The translations under genes and the position numbers were made by a program. A stretch of 64,000 nt of DNA from Trichormus sp. ATA11-4-KO1 (GTDB taxonomy: Bacteria > Cyanobacteriota > Cyanobacteriia > Cyanobacteriales > Nostocaceae), in assembly GCA_019358915.1 (NCBI GenBank), contig JAHHIM010000073.1:1-64000 (forward strand). Reading direction: 5' to 3'. Positions 17,297 to 22,140 of the stretch are shown here, in pieces (position 1 is the first letter of the stretch; every line of letters starts with the position of its first letter). The notes under the pieces were generated by a model that worked only from the letters and a program-made list of their open reading frames with translations, was not told the origin of the DNA and made no database searches.

Positions 17297-17730
17297 AGTT
17301 AAGTTTGTTAACTATTGGGGAAATTTTCCCGTTTTAATGTTTATTAGTTATTTTGGTATCTCATGATGTTTGTTATACGCAGCTATTGTGCCCCTAATTG
17401 TATGGCTGCTAAATTCACAGTCTGAGGTGACAGTTTTGATTGCTTGTTGACGATTGCTTGACCACACCTTAATCTAAAACAAACTCATTACAACTTTAAC
17501 TTAAAATTGCTGAGAATGTCCACCTGTGGACAGGTGTTATGTCTGCCAGAGTGGTTTTGGGGGACAAGGGGACAAGAGAGCAAAACTTTCTCCCCATCCC
17601 CCCATCCTCCCCTCACTCCCTCATCTCCCCATCTCCAGATGACCCGATAAATGTAGCATCAATCCCTGAAAGCTGGTACTGTGGATTCTCGATCCTACTG
17701 TTGAGCATAACTAAAGTTCTTGCTGAGTCA

Positions 17731-18204
17731 ATGACAATCACCATCGCACTCGATACTGACACTATTAACAATCTGGATCTTTCACCCGCGTTAACGGTGA
17801 TTGACCAACTGCTGCAAGAGGGAGCCGCATCCCATGAACAGCAGCTATGCTTTGATATTAACTATTCCTTGGAACCTAGTGATCCTCGTGAATTTTCCGA
17901 AATTCCCGAGTTACGGCTGTGGTTTGTGCGTTTGGATGCCAAATATCCCTGGTTACCATTTTTACTAGACTGGAAATCGGGAGAATTTGCCCGTTACACT
18001 GCCATGCTTGTACCACACCAGTTCAGTACCAAAGAAGGTATTCAATATAATCCAGAGGCTTTAGAAATATTTCTCATGCACAAAATTTTTATTTTAGGTG
18101 ATTGGTTACAACAGCAAGGTATCCCCAGTCAATCGCGGTTAAAGTCTATGGCGCAAATGCTGGGTTATGAGTTGGATGATGCCTTTTTTGAAATATTTGC
18201 ATAG
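17731..18204 (+). CDS. CRR6-family NDH-1 (NdhI) maturation factor (DUF1817)
   Basis: DPREFSEIPELRLWFVRLDAKYPWLP and RYTAMLVPHQF motifs. Start moved to ATG 17731 because the upstream extension is repeat-derived. Confidence 0.8.
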   Translation: MTITIALDTDTINNLDLSPALTVIDQLLQEGAASHEQQLCFDINYSLEPSDPREFSEIPELRLWFVRLDAKYPWLPFLLDWKSGEFARYTAMLVPHQFSTKEGIQYNPEALEIFLMHKIFILGDWLQQQGIPSQSRLKSMAQMLGYELDDAFFEIFA

Positions 18205-18274
18205 GTATTTGTCTCTATTCTCACCGCCGAAAGGAAAATAACTTCCATGACTTAACCATGTATATACACAATGT

Positions 18275-18439
18275 ATGGAGATTGCTCGACTCAGCACAAC
18301 GCTGGGAGCGGACATGATCATATCGAGTCGCTCAAAAGGTATACGCGCCTCACTTCCAGAGGGTATAACCGCTTACGTTGCCAATGCTACGATCGCGCAG
18401 GAAGCTGCCCAACTCGATACATATGCATTTGAATTGTGA
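18275..18439 (+). pseudogene. Possible short-chain dehydrogenase N-terminal fragment
   Basis: Own translation MEIARLSTTLGADMIISSRSKGIRASLPEGITAYVANAT... resembles the SDR betaA-alphaB-betaB region without the TGxxxGxG start. Confidence 0.35.
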
Positions 18440-18501
18440 TGCCGCGATCGCTTGTTGACATATGTCAATCTCACATTGAGAGTAGTCGAATTATGGCGAT
18501 T

Positions 18502-19128
18502 TTACCTGCCAGCCCTCAACACCTGTTCAGCCGTTAGTTTCAAATCTGGAAAGGTTAAAGAGAGGATGCTCTGATTGCCCCGAAGCTGTTGAATTTCATA
18601 CTCCCCATTCACTAGCGTACAGATAGAAAGGGTGGGTTGTTTGGGCTTCCCAATGTGTCGAGTCCCACCATTACCTGCATAGTCTGCAATCCAATATTCG
18701 GGAATTCCTAAAACCGCGTAGTCTTCGACCTTACGGGCATAATCATTTTGCCAGTTGCTACTCACTACTTCCGCCACAAGCTTAATCGAACTGCCCAGCG
18801 TCAGCATCGACTGGTTAGACCAAAGTAGTTCTTTGTTAAGTTCAGCTTGATCGACAACTACAACATCAGGTCGGAATGCTGTCATACTCATATGAGAAGG
18901 GCGCAATAGTCCCCGTTGAAGGACAAACCAAGGTAAGCTTTCTCTGTCAATCTGGACACAGATTTTTGCAGTAATAAAGGCTGCAACCTCTTCATGGAAG
19001 CCTGTTGGTTCCAAGTCGAATACCTCTCCATCAATCAGTTCATAGCGGTTATCGTCACCATAACGGGCGAGAAACTCGTCAAAACTGAGTGGCTTCTGTT
19101 GTATTGGTTGGTTGATGGCAATGGTCAT
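18502..19128 (-). CDS. Uma2-family (DUF820) PD-(D/E)xK endonuclease-like protein
   Basis: RYELIDG, RPDVVVV, LVAEVVS and KVEDYAVLGIPEYWIAD motifs. Confidence 0.9.
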   Translation of the reverse strand: MTIAINQPIQQKPLSFDEFLARYGDDNRYELIDGEVFDLEPTGFHEEVAAFITAKICVQIDRESLPWFVLQRGLLRPSHMSMTAFRPDVVVVDQAELNKELLWSNQSMLTLGSSIKLVAEVVSSNWQNDYARKVEDYAVLGIPEYWIADYAGNGGTRHIGKPKQPTLSICTLVNGEYEIQQLRGNQSILSLTFPDLKLTAEQVLRAGR

Positions 19129-19222
19129 AGGTCAACTTAGCCCAATCAATGCCTTCAGTCTATCAAATCGAATATTTGATGGATGTGTGACGGGTCAAAC
19201 TCCTGATATTAATGGATATTCT

Positions 19223-19308
19223 GCATAACGGTGAAGTTGTGCGGCGGCAGACAACCTCGAACACCTACCAGTAACCTCTGTACCGTCCACACCAACGCAG
19301 TGTTAGCT
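19223..19308 (-). mobile_element. attC-type integron cassette recombination site (86 bp)
   Basis: Minus strand: R'' AGCTAAC, 5-nt spacer ACTGC, L'' GTTGGTGT ... L' GCACAAC, 6-nt spacer TTCACC, R' GTTATGC. The left arm has two unpaired bases (G in L'', A in GGACGG against CCGCC). Confidence 0.8.
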
Positions 19309-19348
19309 GGCTTACCTCACAGATTATCTTCCAGCACGATTCAAGGGT

Positions 19349-19747
19349 TTATGGCTGAAAGCGAAGATTCTGGAGAGATCGCACCTGGGCAATAGTTTCA
19401 AAATCATGATCATTATGAACTAAAAGCAAATTATTTTCCAGTGCAGCTTGAGCAATACAACAATCAATTGGACTGCGAACGGTAAGTCCTTGGCGGCGCA
19501 AGTCATAATAAATACGGGCAGCTGCTTCCCAAGCGTGAGGGGCGAGTTCAACGTAACTTTGTACTTCGAGGTAAGTAGATAAAAGAGTCCACTCTTGCTC
19601 ATTTAAGCTCCCTTGCAACAATTCAAGCTGAGTGAACCGGGTGATACAAACCTCCTGATCTGCAATCAGGGTTTCAAGCTGCTGGCGCACTTGACCGCTG
19701 CGATCGCGAAACACGCCAATCCAAACCGATGTATCAATCAGCAGCAT
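19349..19747 (-). CDS. vapC: VapC PIN-domain toxin
   Basis: MLLIDTSVWI, ELLQG, IDCCIAQ and HNDHDF motifs; start ATG 19747 overlaps the vapB 3' end. Confidence 0.9.
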   Translation of the reverse strand: MLLIDTSVWIGVFRDRSGQVRQQLETLIADQEVCITRFTQLELLQGSLNEQEWTLLSTYLEVQSYVELAPHAWEAAARIYYDLRRQGLTVRSPIDCCIAQAALENNLLLVHNDHDFETIAQVRSLQNLRFQP

Positions 19748-19970
19748 GACGAGTTTCACGCAGGGCTTTATGGTCAAAGTCAGGAGCGAACTGAATTTGC
19801 CCTGCGAGATCGAGTAAGTTTCTCCTGCGGCGCGATGCTCCAGAGGAGCCACTTCGTGAACGCACAAGTTCTTTCAGAGCAAGCTTGATCAGTTCTTCTT
19901 GAGTGGTAAGGTTGGTGAGTTGGAGTGCTTCGTTGATGAGGGCTTCGTCAAGATTAAGGGTAATTTGCAT
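19734..19970 (-). CDS. vapB: VapB-family antitoxin carrying a 24-nt in-frame insertion
   Basis: MQITLNLDEALINEA...LLDLAGQIQFAPDFDHKALR; overlaps vapC. Confidence 0.85.
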   Translation of the reverse strand: MQITLNLDEALINEALQLTNLTTQEELIKLALKELVRSRSGSSGASRRRRNLLDLAGQIQFAPDFDHKALRETRHAAD

Positions 19971-20118
19971 AGGACAACCACTAGAGAAACGGGGTTCAGG
20001 AGGAGTTGATTTGAATTTAGTGTAGCTGAACTTACGGATTGCCCCACACCACTGTCCTTACCAATTATATTCTGGGTGCTGTCCCACCTCACGGACAACC
20101 TTGAATGATGCCAAAGCT

Positions 20119-20469
20119 TCAAATGGTTTGCCGGGGAACTGCTGTGCTTTTATCTCCAGTATTAGGTGTTCCTGTCGGTTCAATCAGTAAAAGATGTACT
20201 TCTTCTTCTGCTACAGGTCGATGTTCCGTACCACGAGGCACTACAAAAAGCTCACCTGCTTCAAGATGGATATCTTGATCGCGCAATTGAATCGTTAAAC
20301 GCCCTTTAAGAACAAGGAAGAAGTCATCTGTCTCATCATGCTTATGCCAAACGAACTCATCTTTGACTTTAACAACCATGATGTCGTACTGGTTAAGTTG
20401 TGCAATAGTCTTTGGAGACCAATACTCTGAGAACTGAGAAAGTTTTTCGCTTAAGTTAATTTTGTCCAT
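20119..20469 (-). CDS. Cupin-domain protein
   Basis: FVWHKHDETDDFFLVLKG and GELFVVPRGTEHRP motifs; GAGGA RBS before ATG 20469. Confidence 0.88.
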   Translation of the reverse strand: MDKINLSEKLSQFSEYWSPKTIAQLNQYDIMVVKVKDEFVWHKHDETDDFFLVLKGRLTIQLRDQDIHLEAGELFVVPRGTEHRPVAEEEVHLLLIEPTGTPNTGDKSTAVPRQTI

Positions 20470-20596
20470 ATTGTCCTCTATCTCTAACTGCCTTAGCATT
20501 GACTCCTGCCTACTCGCTCGTGCAAATCAGATCCTGAAAGTGTAGCACCACTACCAAATGCTTCAAGCAACGAGTGCAAGACCTCTGTGCGGAGCT

Positions 20597-20682
20597 AGCT
20601 AACGATCCCAGTCAGCGGCTGCCAAGGACTTAAACTCAGCACCAGAGATGTTCTTCAGTCCGCTGCACTGGGCTTGTTATGC
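20597..20682 (-). mobile_element. attC-type integron cassette recombination site (86 bp)
   Basis: Minus strand: R'' GCATAAC, AAGCCC, L'' AGTGCAGC, GGAC ... L' GCTGACT, GGGATC, R' GTTAGCT. Unpaired G and A in the left arm; starts 7 bp after the upstream ORF stop. Confidence 0.78.
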
Positions 20683-20689
20683 AGCGGTA

Positions 20690-20971
20690 CTACTTACTCA
20701 ACAGTTGAACATCGACATAATTTACTAGCCATCTGCTCCATTGATCTATAAATAACAACCAGCGTTCACACTCGGTCGGCATAAAATTATTAGGAACTTT
20801 CCCATCCAGTATTTGCTCTACCCATTTGCGTATCTGAATGATTTGTTTCTGTAAATCGACCCGGTAACTTTCTTCATCTCGTAAAAATCCTTTGCCATGC
20901 GCTACTAAATTTCTTGAGCCAAAAGCAATATCTTTTATCTTTAAGTTTGAAAGTATTATACGGAAACTCAC
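20690..20971 (-). pseudogene. 5'-truncated HEPN-like (Rx4H) protein
   Basis: RNLVAH motif near the apparent N-terminus; the nominal GTG start lies inside a DNA palindrome and has no RBS. Confidence 0.45.
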
Positions 20972-21133
20972 CGTATAATCTTTATCTCAATCCGAATATA
21001 TCAAGCATTACAATCACTTCTGTCTGAGATATACGGAAAATTTCTTTTTTACGCCCCTATTTTAAATATTATACAGAATTGTTCCGTATAATTACCCCTC
21101 GCGGGAGGATTATATGGAATTGTTACCTATAAT
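20955..21133. repeat. Three 25-bp 9-7-9 palindromes ATTATACGG-N7-CCGTATAAT plus a half-site
   Basis: 20955-20979 perfect, 21068-21092 with 1 mismatch, 21109-21133 with 3 mismatches; half-site ATATACGGAAA at ~21029-21039. Confidence 0.85.
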
Positions 21134-21249
21134 CCTTGGTTTTATAACTGTGTCTTAGTCAAAACTCCAGTTACTCAGTGCTGAGTGCTAAGTGTAGTAA
21201 ATGATTTTTAAACCACTGAGACACAAAGAACGCAGAGAAACAAGCAGTT

Positions 21250-22140
21250 TTATGATTCAGCTGCATAGGGCCAGTTCTGCTCATCTAAAGTACCATTACG
21301 GGCAAAAATTTCAATAGCCTCACTTCTGGTCAAACTATTTTCAGATGCCAATTCTGCCAACTTTTCCCAAGCTGTATCTGTGAGTCTGATAGACCTGAGG
21401 TGTTTAGGCTCACAACCATAATCCATCTTAAATTTACCCGATGCAGTACGCTTGCGCCTGGAGGATTTCTGCCTTGTACCTGAATACTGATTGACAGTTG
21501 GCGTTTTGGGCAGTTGATTACTAGTTACTAAGTGAATTAAGTGAGCAATTAGGCGATCGCGCGACATCGGTAATAGTTGGTGACTATGTAGCATATTCTG
21601 AATAATGGTGAAATGTACTAATGTCCCCATAAAAATCCGCGCCGCTACTTCTGGGTCTGGTAGTTGCAGTTCTGGATGTTCTATAAAATATTGCGTTAGC
21701 ATTTCCAACGCAGGTTTGTGTATATTCCGCACAAACTCTTGCGCCAGCAGTGGGAAACGTCCAGACTCACCGATAATCAGCCTGACTAAATTCAATACTT
21801 CCTGTTGTTCGGTCATCCGCACCAAAATGTTGGCTGCTAAACGGCGCAAAACAGTTTGAGGTTCTCCTTCCAGGAAATGCGGGTCTTGGGGATTAAATAC
21901 TGCCCGAAAATTTTCCTGAGCCAGTTGCTCAATCAGTGCAATAAATAATCTTTCCTTATCTTGAAAGTAGCTGTAGACCGTGGTTTTGGATACTCCTGCT
22001 GCTGCTGTCACTTTATCCATTGTGGTAGCAGCATAGCCATTTGCTAGAAATTCTTGCATGGCACCAGCGAGAATCGCATCAACTTTCTCTGGTGACAGCA
22101 AACGTTCTCCCTGATTACTTTGTGTCTGTTTCTTTTTCAT
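21250..22140 (-). CDS. TetR-family regulator with an extra C-terminal ribbon-helix-helix-like domain
   Basis: TetR HTH (TTMDKVTAAAGVSKTTVYSYF); C-terminal LRSIRLTDTAWEKLAELASENSLTRSEAIEIFAR; divergent from the devBCA-like operon. Confidence 0.85.
   Translation of the reverse strand: MKKKQTQSNQGERLLSPEKVDAILAGAMQEFLANGYAATTMDKVTAAAGVSKTTVYSYFQDKERLFIALIEQLAQENFRAVFNPQDPHFLEGEPQTVLRRLAANILVRMTEQQEVLNLVRLIIGESGRFPLLAQEFVRNIHKPALEMLTQYFIEHPELQLPDPEVAARIFMGTLVHFTIIQNMLHSHQLLPMSRDRLIAHLIHLVTSNQLPKTPTVNQYSGTRQKSSRRKRTASGKFKMDYGCEPKHLRSIRLTDTAWEKLAELASENSLTRSEAIEIFARNGTLDEQNWPYAAES

What the first reader, a model, noticed from the sequence alone, without database searches (positions are those of the whole stretch)
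18490..21133. Integrase-less integron-like gene-cassette array in a Nostocales chromosome
Seen: two non-identical 86-bp imperfect hairpins (19223-19308, 20597-20682) with attC anatomy on the minus strand: R''(..TAAC)-L''...L'-R'(GTT..), each with two unpaired bases in the left arm. All cargo ORFs are co-oriented, and the stop codons lie 7 and 40 bp before R''. The segment between the sites starts G|TTAGCTAGC and ends GCCAGCTAAC (9/10 complementary), the signature of a circularisable cassette. Minus-strand order: HEPN remnant, attC, cupin+vapBC, attC, Uma2, then a possible decayed R'' (GCCATAAT, 18490-18497). A further GTTAGAG just before the cupin RBS (20482-20488) may be an older cassette junction. 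Established: TA pairs and small accessory genes are typical cassette cargo, and attC clusters lacking an integrase (CALIN) exist. Inference: a cyanobacterial cassette system, mobilised in trans or orphaned, inserted between core genes. No intI is present in this window.
Basis: partly seen in the sequence, partly recalled or inferred. Interest (0 to 1): 0.85.

Follow-up and report, generated by a model that had tools for sequence, protein, structure and literature searches.

The report
Decayed integron in a cyanobacterial chromosome
This 3-kb insert is the real but broken remnant of an integron, a bacterial gene-capture device: its swappable gene cassettes and most of its docking region survive while its recombinase and docking point are gone, which is a known kind of element and a common fate.

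Summary
Confirmed. Both hairpins are attC sites: 71 and 67 bits with a model built without them. The boundaries are real crossovers. The same-genus genome joins a different attC to the same Uma2 cassette at G|TT, and contigs from two other studies match exactly 19226-20604, so cupin+vapBC moves as one cassette. It is the attI/promoter platform of a Nostocaceae integron clade. All 22 other copies aligned carry GTT after it, and many have intI about 64 bp beyond it. Here intI is gone and the attI crossover is deleted into cassette 1. The third attC remnant lies at 18407-18442, not 18490. The tetR-crr6 site is empty in 7 of 9 sister-genus loci, and the assembly holds no intact intI. Verdict: an integron that lost its integrase (CALIN type), now probably inert. 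Cyanobacterial integrons are published, and this scan noted similar remnants on other DNA. Open point: this integrase clade (90-94% identical) sits beside 22 different flanks in 29 places, sometimes with host-DNA duplications starting at an attC crossover.

The parts
21250..22140 (-). Host TetR-family regulator, left flank of the island, co-oriented with the cassettes
   Evidence: PF00440 + PF14246; orthologues in relatives
21169..21249 (.). Short genomic repeat after tetR, shared with same-genus G001; the two genomes diverge at about 21168
   Evidence: Copies elsewhere in the genome; G001 sequence
20954..21147 (-). Truncated attI / promoter platform of a Nostocaceae integron clade. It holds palindromic repeats at 20955-20979, 21068-21092 and a worn one near 21109-21133, plus a conserved ATGCTTGATATATT box at 20995-21008. 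The intI-proximal end and intI are deleted
   Evidence: 80% identical to the region before intI on contig C25; alignment of 23 copies; intI start about 64 bp beyond the platform in relatives; profile hit 158 bits, model positions 52-243 of 250
20953..20954 (-). Deletion junction that removed the attI G|TT crossover and about 140 codons of cassette 1
   Evidence: 22 of 22 other copies have GTT within about 10 nt of this point, the window has none; the ORF resumes at about residue 140 of 226-aa relatives
20690..20953 (-). 3' remnant (about 87 codons) of a 226-aa gene of unknown family with an invariant RNLVAH motif; possibly HEPN-like
   Evidence: 10 longer relatives, best 94% identical; R153, N154, H158 invariant in 21 sequences; no Pfam, NCBIfam or PADLOC family; Atlas lead DUF4145 at 0.85; HEPN chains at Z 3.8-4.7 among unrelated helical bundles
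20597..20682 (-). attC site 1; crossover G|TT at 20603/20602
   Evidence: 71.2 bits; cupin cassette follows a different left site in G199 and in run X2
19229..20602 (-). 1374-bp cassette carrying cupin + vapBC and its attC
   Evidence: Contigs of runs X2 and X3 (different studies) align at exactly 19226-20604
20119..20469 (-). Cupin gene (116 aa)
   Evidence: PF07883, E 7e-15
19734..19970 (-). vapB antitoxin
   Evidence: PF09957
19349..19747 (-). vapC PIN-domain toxin, overlapping vapB
   Evidence: PF01850; NF047959 137 bits against cut-off 80
19223..19308 (-). attC site 2; crossover G|TT at 19229/19228; one L-stem pair broken, weak fold
   Evidence: 67.4 bits with one non-standard pair; G001 has a different attC joined at the same G|TT; fold estimates
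18502..19128 (-). Uma2 (putative restriction endonuclease) gene, cargo of cassette 3 (about 19228-18413)
   Evidence: PF05685; PADLOC PDC-S03 284 bits; attC directly beside the homologue in 3 of 14 other genomes
18407..18442 (-). Decayed attC site 3: left arm kept with AAC changed to CAC, interior deleted, R' GTTGGGC kept
   Evidence: Same position as intact attC after Uma2 in G052 (61.1 bits) and G005 (42.6 bits); window hit only 10.9 bits, E 2.4
18273..18412 (-). Probable stub of a fourth cassette
   Evidence: Inference: begins at the G|TT of site 3 and is not seen at the empty sites
18256..18272 (-). Host motif that follows tetR closely in integron-free relatives; marks the far end of the island
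   Evidence: Seen shortly after tetR in all 10 loci printed, L218-L227; position
17539..18204 (+). Host crr6 gene, right flank (true start probably near 17686)
   Evidence: PF08847

Best explanation
A complete integron (intI + attI platform + cassettes) came to lie between tetR and crr6 in the ancestor of this genus. While an integrase was available it swapped cassettes by IntI-type site-specific recombination at G|TT on the folded bottom strand of attC. It then decayed by ordinary deletions: intI and the near end of the platform were lost, one deletion removed the attI crossover with the 5' part of cassette 1, and attC3 collapsed. What remains is a three-cassette array that cannot take new cassettes at attI and has no intact integrase in the assembly. 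The cupin+vapBC cassette still has two recognisable attC sites and could be excised if an integrase came in; the vapBC pair may help keep it in place. Shown: attC anatomy, cassette boundaries at G|TT, identity of the platform, the empty ancestral site, broken intI copies. Inferred: that intI once stood at this very locus, the order of the deletions, the promoter in the platform, stabilisation by vapBC. Established knowledge: the IntI mechanism (PMC2727003, PMC4889954).
For: attC model hits 71.2 and 67.4 bits, strand-specific. In 80 loci fetched by IntI similarity, 36 of 40 attC-scan hits lay on the strand opposite intI. G001 carries a ParE-type pair with another attC joined at the same G|TT to the Uma2 leader, and that pair lies between two attC sites in G147. 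Runs X2 and X3 match exactly 19226-20604. The G199 cupin cassette starts at the same G|TT behind an attI fragment. Across 30 platform copies, column identity is 0.80-1.0 over the 13 positions before the G, 1.0 at GTT and 0.3-0.5 ten to fourteen bases later. Of 45 platform copies, 13 have intI covering at least 300 residues next to them, 15 a piece and 17 none (the sample is enriched for intI). crr6 follows tetR within 171-276 nt in 7 of 9 sister-genus loci and within 110 nt in G019. intI in G000 covers only residues 99-320 (C5), 1-41 plus 242-320 (C25) and 273-317 (C37).
Against: No intI trace is left at this locus in G000 or G001, so local loss is inferred from other loci. G001 has no platform here at all. 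G001's locus is split over two contigs by an insertion sequence, so its continuity is inferred. The model was trained on sites picked by my own scanner, which demanded AAC/GTT and pairing and was retuned after a first version missed the window's sites, so the covariation figures are inflated. Site 2 folds no better than shuffles. 11 of 14 Uma2 homologue loci have no clear attC. The promoter scan is at chance level, 5 found against 5.4 expected. The assembly has 73 contigs, so an intact intI could be missing from it.
Confidence: 0.8

Rival explanations
1. The array was seeded by cassettes inserting at a secondary (attG-type) site behind tetR, using an integrase encoded elsewhere. The platform fragment arrived later, already without intI, as a passenger piece comparable to delta-attI cassettes.
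For: G001 has cassettes but no platform here. Single attC sites without a platform occur at C10, C13 and C47 of this genome. Platform fragments are joined to other DNA at AAC or GTT in G196 and G158 loci (L161, L149), and an attI stub sits inside an array in G199. attG insertion and delta-attI cassettes are published (10.1101/2022.09.11.507474, passages; PMC12901181, abstract). The window's platform begins just after a GTT at about 21148.
Against: The platform lies first in the array, correctly oriented, with 190 bp retained, as in the many copies that still show intI stubs. Left truncation points of about 20 copies are scattered and mostly not at GTT.
Confidence: 0.15
2. The array is still worked in trans by an integrase elsewhere in this organism, so cupin+vapBC is being excised and re-inserted now.
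For: Precise G|TT exchange happened after the split from G001. attC1 has a strong recombinogenic fold, estimated probability 0.88. The C5 fragment keeps the catalytic half and passes the TIGR02249 cut-off.
Against: No intact intI in a 99.89%-complete assembly; the C5 copy lacks about 98 N-terminal residues. attC2 has a broken pair and the local attI crossover is deleted.
Confidence: 0.08
3. The hairpins are chance structures or REP/MITE-like repeats and the genes are an ordinary variable island.
For: A loose hairpin scan gave 117 hits in the genome and 22 in 1.5 Mb of simulated DNA. Site 2 alone folds weakly.
Against: Model scores far above background and strand-specific; association with intI across cyanobacteria; cassette boundaries exactly at the crossovers in several independent sources. 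No relevant Rfam family.
Confidence: 0.01

Closest known systems
[quoted passage not shown] 2016, PMC4889954; Neron et al. 2022, PMC9024848; passages read)
   Same: At least two attC sites, co-oriented cassettes, no intI nearby, few cassettes, other intI pieces elsewhere in the genome.
   Different: The route of origin can be read here because the attI platform is retained. Those papers say attI is unknown or poorly described outside class 1-3 integrons and do not search for it.
Cyanobacterial chromosomal integrons (Nemergut 2008, PMC2426708; Ghaly 2021, PMC8352920, which built a Cyanobacteria attC model; passages read)
   Same: Same phylum, chromosomal, attC-bounded cassettes with toxin-antitoxin cargo, frequent broken integrases.
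   Different: I found no description of this clade's attI or of its scatter over many loci in the passages and listings seen. I could not run the published model and did not read its supplements.
Class 1 integron attI1 and attC (Bouvier 2009, PMC2727003; Ghaly 2022, 10.1101/2022.02.06.479319; passages read)
   Same: G|TT crossover, R and L boxes, unpaired central spacer, two extrahelical bases, an attI core with a degenerate left half-site 5 bp before GTT.
   Different: The first extrahelical base on the bottom strand is C rather than the conserved G (G on the top strand in 30 of 36 correctly oriented scan hits). Bouvier found G-to-C costs only 2.7-fold. Instead of attI1's two accessory direct repeats, this platform has about five palindromic repeats between intI and the crossover.
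Sedentary chromosomal integrons, e.g. Xanthomonas at ilvD (10.1101/2025.06.18.660453; passages read)
   Same: Chromosomal location beside host genes, integrase decay, CALINs at other loci.
   Different: Xanthomonas intI stays almost always at one locus. Here 29 intI 3' ends in Nostocaceae fall into 22 flank groups although full-length integrases are 90-94% identical.

Membership tests
Integron attC site | R''(..AAC) and R'(GTT..) boxes, L boxes, unpaired central spacer, paired stem | tested here: met
   both sites take this fold as bottom-strand minimum-energy structure
Integron attC site | Extrahelical bases on the R''-L'' arm that give strand asymmetry | tested here: met
   Two per site; bottom strand 71.2 bits against 19.7 for the top strand. 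First base is C, not the usual G
Integron attC site | Cassette gain or loss exactly at G|TT | tested here: met
   G001 at attC2; G199 and run X2 at attC1
Integron attC site | Hit with a published attC model (IntegronFinder or the Cyanobacteria model) | not testable with these tools
   Not held; Rfam gave nothing relevant. My own model R1 was used instead
Integron attC site | IntI-dependent recombination of the bottom strand | not testable with these tools
   Bench assay needed
CALIN | Two or more attC sites in one cluster | tested here: met
   Two strong sites 1374 bp apart plus one decayed
CALIN | No integron integrase nearby | tested here: met
   No TIGR02249 match on contig C73; tblastn finds IntI only on C5, C25 and C37
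Complete integron | intI adjacent to the array | tested here: not met
Complete integron | attI with an intact G|TT crossover | tested here: not met
   Platform present but crossover deleted at 20954/20953
Complete integron | Cassette promoter Pc | tested here: inconclusive
   A conserved box at 20995-21008 is retained and one promoter-like site overlaps it, but the scan is at chance level
Integron integrase (cognate enzyme in relatives) | Tyrosine recombinase scoring as IntI | tested here: met
   The 320-aa protein next to the platform in G004 scores 476.9 bits on TIGR02249, cut-off 265, against 146 or less for the XerC/XerD models
Sedentary chromosomal integron | Conserved chromosomal locus across related genomes | tested here: not met
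   Empty site in the sister genus; 22 flank groups among 29 intI ends; platform also on 3 Nostoc plasmids
HEPN ribonuclease (ORF 1 relatives) | RxxxxH motif | tested here: met
   R153, N154, H158 invariant in 21 relatives
HEPN ribonuclease (ORF 1 relatives) | HEPN family profile or fold | tested here: inconclusive
   No Pfam hit; model pLDDT 85; no Foldseek match; several HEPN chains at Z 3.8-4.7, rmsd about 4-5, not above unrelated bundles; Atlas DUF4145 at 0.85 is a lead only
VapBC type II toxin-antitoxin pair | Antitoxin gene overlapping a downstream PIN-domain toxin gene | tested here: met
   activity not tested

The most novel reading that the evidence does not exclude
Nostocaceae integrons may be neither sedentary nor transposon-borne but nomadic. 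IntI would recombine the last attC with a secondary site in the host gene beyond intI, releasing the whole integron plus a host tag as one large 'cassette'. That circle would re-enter at the same site or by homology in another chromosome copy or strain, then lose intI and leave a platform like the one in this window. Support: 22 flank groups for 29 closely related intI ends. Several integron remnants per genome (attC hits on 7 contigs and three platforms in G000). Two clean cases, among 77 attC sites tested, where a duplication of flanking host DNA starts exactly at an attC G|TT (G000:C25, 364 bp, 96.7%; G004:C93, 422 bp with the platform, 95%). Similar duplications without a clean junction in five more loci. 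Against: the window itself shows no such duplication. The two host sites read TTT and ATT, not the GWT consensus. Tandem duplication in place explains the same structures without movement to new loci. Plasmids carry the platform. Some 'flanks' may be passenger genes.
Probability: 0.25. Interest if true: 0.7.

Novelty: new member of a known kind. Interest (0 to 1): 0.36.

Why it matters
The locus itself is an ordinary outcome: CALINs are as common as complete integrons, and cyanobacterial integrons are on record. Its value is as a well-resolved case. It shows the origin of a CALIN through loss of intI, a route Cury et al. could rarely trace because attI was unknown. It yields by comparison the attI of a Nostocaceae integron clade, with its crossover mapped and a repeat-rich upstream region that can be tested directly. 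It also shows that cassettes with toxin-antitoxin and candidate defence genes circulate among freshwater cyanobacteria. If the nomadic reading held, it would add a third integron lifestyle and a natural example of IntI capturing host DNA, which bears on the open question of how cassettes and CALINs arise.

Tried and rejected
A first home-made attC scan was useless: 117 hits in the genome, 22 in 1.5 Mb of simulated DNA, and it missed both window sites because of a fixed spacer; discarded. I first read cupin+vapBC as a local fusion of two cassettes, because cupin has its own worn attC in G199 and vapBC+attC has other upstream partners in G255 and a Leptolyngbya integron. One search showed the pair travelling as one unit, so it is a composite cassette that now moves whole. 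The idea that the element ends at a fixed G|TT just after the intI stop was rejected: the 3' flanks diverge without a common crossover. The idea that platform truncations cluster at IntI-type crossovers was not supported in general. No tetR 3'-end duplication was found at the far end of the window's array. The promoter and terminator scan was at chance level. Rfam gave nothing relevant. The single-sequence fold of the ORF 1 relative was unusable, pLDDT 36; Foldseek found no match for the better model. No RNA holder was listed among sequencing runs, which says nothing about expression. Run X1 may be the source of this DNA and was not counted; it showed no excised form, but contigs cannot show absence. 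Searches scored only two candidates per genome, so their counts are lower bounds. The RHH/ParE labels for the G001 pair come from my reading of the translated sequence, not from a family search, because both scans that included those ORFs failed on frame errors.
Full report
Observation. Each has an AAC-ending R'' box, a GTT-starting R' box and two unpaired bases in the left arm. Folded as DNA, the bottom strand of both takes the attC-type structure as its minimum-energy fold, at -17.8 and -9.2 kcal/mol. The cargo is a cupin, VapB, VapC and Uma2, all co-oriented. To test the sites independently I collected 42 attC-like sites from other loci and built a covariance model without the window's sites. 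Over the whole 64-kb window it scores them 71.2 and 67.4 bits; the top strand of site 1 scores 19.7 and the next hit 11.3. The training sites came from my own scanner, so the pair statistics (95.5% paired, 11 of 17 pairs with two-sided changes) are inflated. A check that does not depend on this: 36 of 40 scan hits in 80 loci fetched by integrase similarity lie on the strand opposite intI, as cassettes should. Site 2 is the weaker one, with one L-stem pair broken and a fold no better than shuffles.

The repeats at 20954-21147 are 80% identical to the DNA just upstream of a broken intI on contig C25 of the same genome. The same element occurs in many relatives. I aligned 22 such copies with the window's. 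All 22 run into GTT a few bases after the last palindrome and then diverge; the window's copy stops short of it. Among 30 copies, identity is 0.80-1.0 before the crossover, 1.0 at GTT and 0.3-0.5 ten to fourteen bases later. On the other side, intI starts about 64 bp beyond the element where it survives, and the full-length protein in G004 scores 477 bits on TIGR02249 (cut-off 265). This is therefore the attI and promoter platform of a Nostocaceae integron clade; the family is inferred from a 93%-identical Nostoc integrase and three Nostoc plasmid hits. Of 45 platform copies in my loci, 13 have an integrase covering at least 300 residues beside them, 15 a piece and 17 none; the sample is enriched for intI and includes the window. 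In the window, intI and the first 50 bases of the platform are gone. A second deletion, at 20954/20953, removed the crossover and about 140 codons of cassette 1, whose 226-aa relatives are up to 94% identical.

Cassette boundaries. G001, the only other genome of this genus, shares tetR and the Uma2 side. Between them it has a different toxin-antitoxin pair whose attC (78 bits) joins the Uma2 leader at the same G|TT as attC2. The sequences are identical for 57 bases downstream and differ from the third base upstream. That pair lies between two attC sites in G147. G001's locus is split over two contigs by an insertion sequence, so its continuity is inferred. At attC1, the cupin cassette of G199 starts at the same G|TT behind a short attI fragment. 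Contigs from two other studies align to exactly 19226-20604, at about 90% and 94% identity, and one continues into what reads as a different attC arm (runs X2 and X3). So cupin+vapBC is a 1374-bp cassette that moves as a unit, although cupin alone and vapBC with other partners also occur. Uma2 is a cassette gene too: 3 of 14 homologue loci have a clear attC directly beside it, and 11 do not. The GTTAGAG before the cupin lies within a collinear leader and is not supported as a junction.

Insertion and state of the integrase. In 7 of 9 loci of the sister genus, crr6 follows tetR within 171-276 nt; one contig ends there and one has another gene. G019 is also empty. Among 29 tetR loci only G001 shows an attC within 1.5 kb, and none shows a platform or intI. 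A host motif that follows tetR in those genomes lies at 18256-18272 here, so the island spans about 18273-21250. The genome has nine attC hits on seven contigs and three platforms, but every intI is broken: residues 99-320 on C5, 1-41 plus 242-320 on C25, 273-317 on C37. The assembly is 99.89% complete but in 73 contigs. In the family, 40 of 251 genomes have an intI match at E <= 1e-25, 12 pass the cut-off and about 7-8 look intact.

Mechanism. Best reading (0.8): a complete integron settled behind tetR in the ancestor of the genus, exchanged cassettes by IntI recombination at G|TT, and then lost intI and its attI crossover by deletion. It can no longer load cassettes, and cupin+vapBC could leave only if an integrase arrives. 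The anatomy, boundaries, empty site and broken integrases are shown. The former presence of intI at this locus, the order of events, the promoter and any stabilising role of vapBC are inferred. Rivals are seeding at a secondary site with later arrival of the platform (0.15), present activity in trans (0.08) and chance hairpins (0.01). ORF 1's relatives have an invariant RxxxxH motif, but family and fold tests were inconclusive, so HEPN stays a lead. Uma2 matches a candidate defence model, PDC-S03.

Comparison with what is known. I read passages, not whole texts, of Cury 2016, Ghaly 2021, Cambray 2011, the attG preprint, Nemergut 2008, Bouvier 2009, the archaeal integron preprint, a 2021 integron review, IntegronFinder 2 and the Xanthomonas preprint. 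I saw abstracts and outlines only for PMC12901181 and PMC12614218, and no supplements, which may list cyanobacterial sites. Together they establish integrons in Cyanobacteria, a cyanobacterial attC model, CALINs as common, loss of intI as one route to them, about a third of intI genes as pseudogenes, and toxin-antitoxin pairs as typical cargo. The locus meets the CALIN definition and fails that of a complete integron. It differs in detail: the first extrahelical base is C on the bottom strand, which Bouvier found nearly neutral, and the platform has about five palindromic repeats rather than two accessory repeats. Eight searches listed no paper describing this attI, but the library lacks most subscription journals. 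This scan had already noted similar cyanobacterial remnants, including stacked platforms behind a host gene end, in other genomes; these are unchecked notes and I do not count them as support.

Most novel reading. Full-length integrases of this clade are 90-94% identical, yet 29 intI 3' ends fall into 22 flank groups, unlike the fixed ilvD locus of Xanthomonas. In 2 of 77 attC sites tested, a duplication of flanking host DNA begins exactly at the crossover (G000:C25, 364 bp; G004:C93, 422 bp including a second platform). Five more loci show duplications with untidy junctions. This fits whole integrons being excised with a host tag by attC-by-secondary-site recombination and re-entering elsewhere. 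It also fits duplication in place, and plasmids carry the platform with attC sites. The window itself shows no duplication. I give this reading 0.25.

Verdict. The feature is real and correctly read in outline: a decayed cyanobacterial integron of the CALIN type, with its attI platform partly kept. It is a new member of a known kind. Interest 0.36, mostly for the mapped attI and the question of how these integrons reach so many loci.

Noticed in passing
L010:5159-8496 (G000:C25): A second integron remnant: intact attI crossover, intI deleted for residues 42-241, three cassettes. It is flanked by a 364-bp, 96.7%-identical duplication of the 3' part of a host cupin gene that starts exactly at the last attC G|TT.
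   Followed up: partly
L009:3831-10466 (G000:C5) and L035 (G001:C79): Integron remnant behind a nitrate-reductase-like gene (label from my reading of the translation) in both genomes, with two to four stacked copies of that gene's 3' end. Several junctions fall at the GCGATCGC octamer (recalled as HIP1).
   Followed up: partly
L022:6813-8340 (G000:C18): Platform stub directly after a seryl-tRNA-synthetase-like gene, followed by an unknown ORF, a vapBC-like pair and a weak attC (26.5 bits).
   Followed up: partly
G000:C10:96850-96936, C13:57362-57448, C47:14683-14765; C37:43176-43310: Three single attC sites without a platform (one only half preserved) and a C-terminal intI fragment beside a Uma2-like gene.
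   Followed up: no
L024:3911-7027 (G004:C93) and L152 (G114): Two platforms in tandem, each behind the same response-regulator gene start, the second joined at an attC G|TT. G114 has a separate integron remnant in the promoter of the same gene.
   Followed up: partly
L161:~5965 and L149:~5540: Platform repeats joined to other DNA at IntI-like points: a cassette R'' fused at TAAC in one, an intI C-terminal stub fused at GTT in the other. This suggests the repeats can be cut.
   Followed up: partly
Regions upstream of intI in L043-L122: Leptolyngbya, Pseudanabaena, Nodosilinea and other cyanobacteria also have tandem 30-33-bp units with paired half-sites between intI and the attI crossover, so the repeat-rich platform may be phylum-wide (seen by eye).
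   Followed up: no
L012:4959 onward and L123:1-200 (G001): An IS200/IS605-like element (label recalled from the sequence) interrupts the Uma2 leader in the same-genus genome and splits its assembly.
   Followed up: no
L262 and L263 (Nostoc plasmids NZ_CP040277.1, NZ_CP054697.1): The platform with a downstream attC occurs on plasmids, one predicted conjugative; it is not annotated in either record.
   Followed up: partly
P0002 and relatives (P0001-P0027): A small unnamed protein family, about 226 aa, with a Cys-rich N-terminal part and an invariant RxxxxH motif. It folds confidently (pLDDT 85) but has no clear structural match.
   Followed up: partly
window 17559-17636 and 21198-21271: Short repeats with many copies elsewhere in the genome flank the region.
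   Followed up: no
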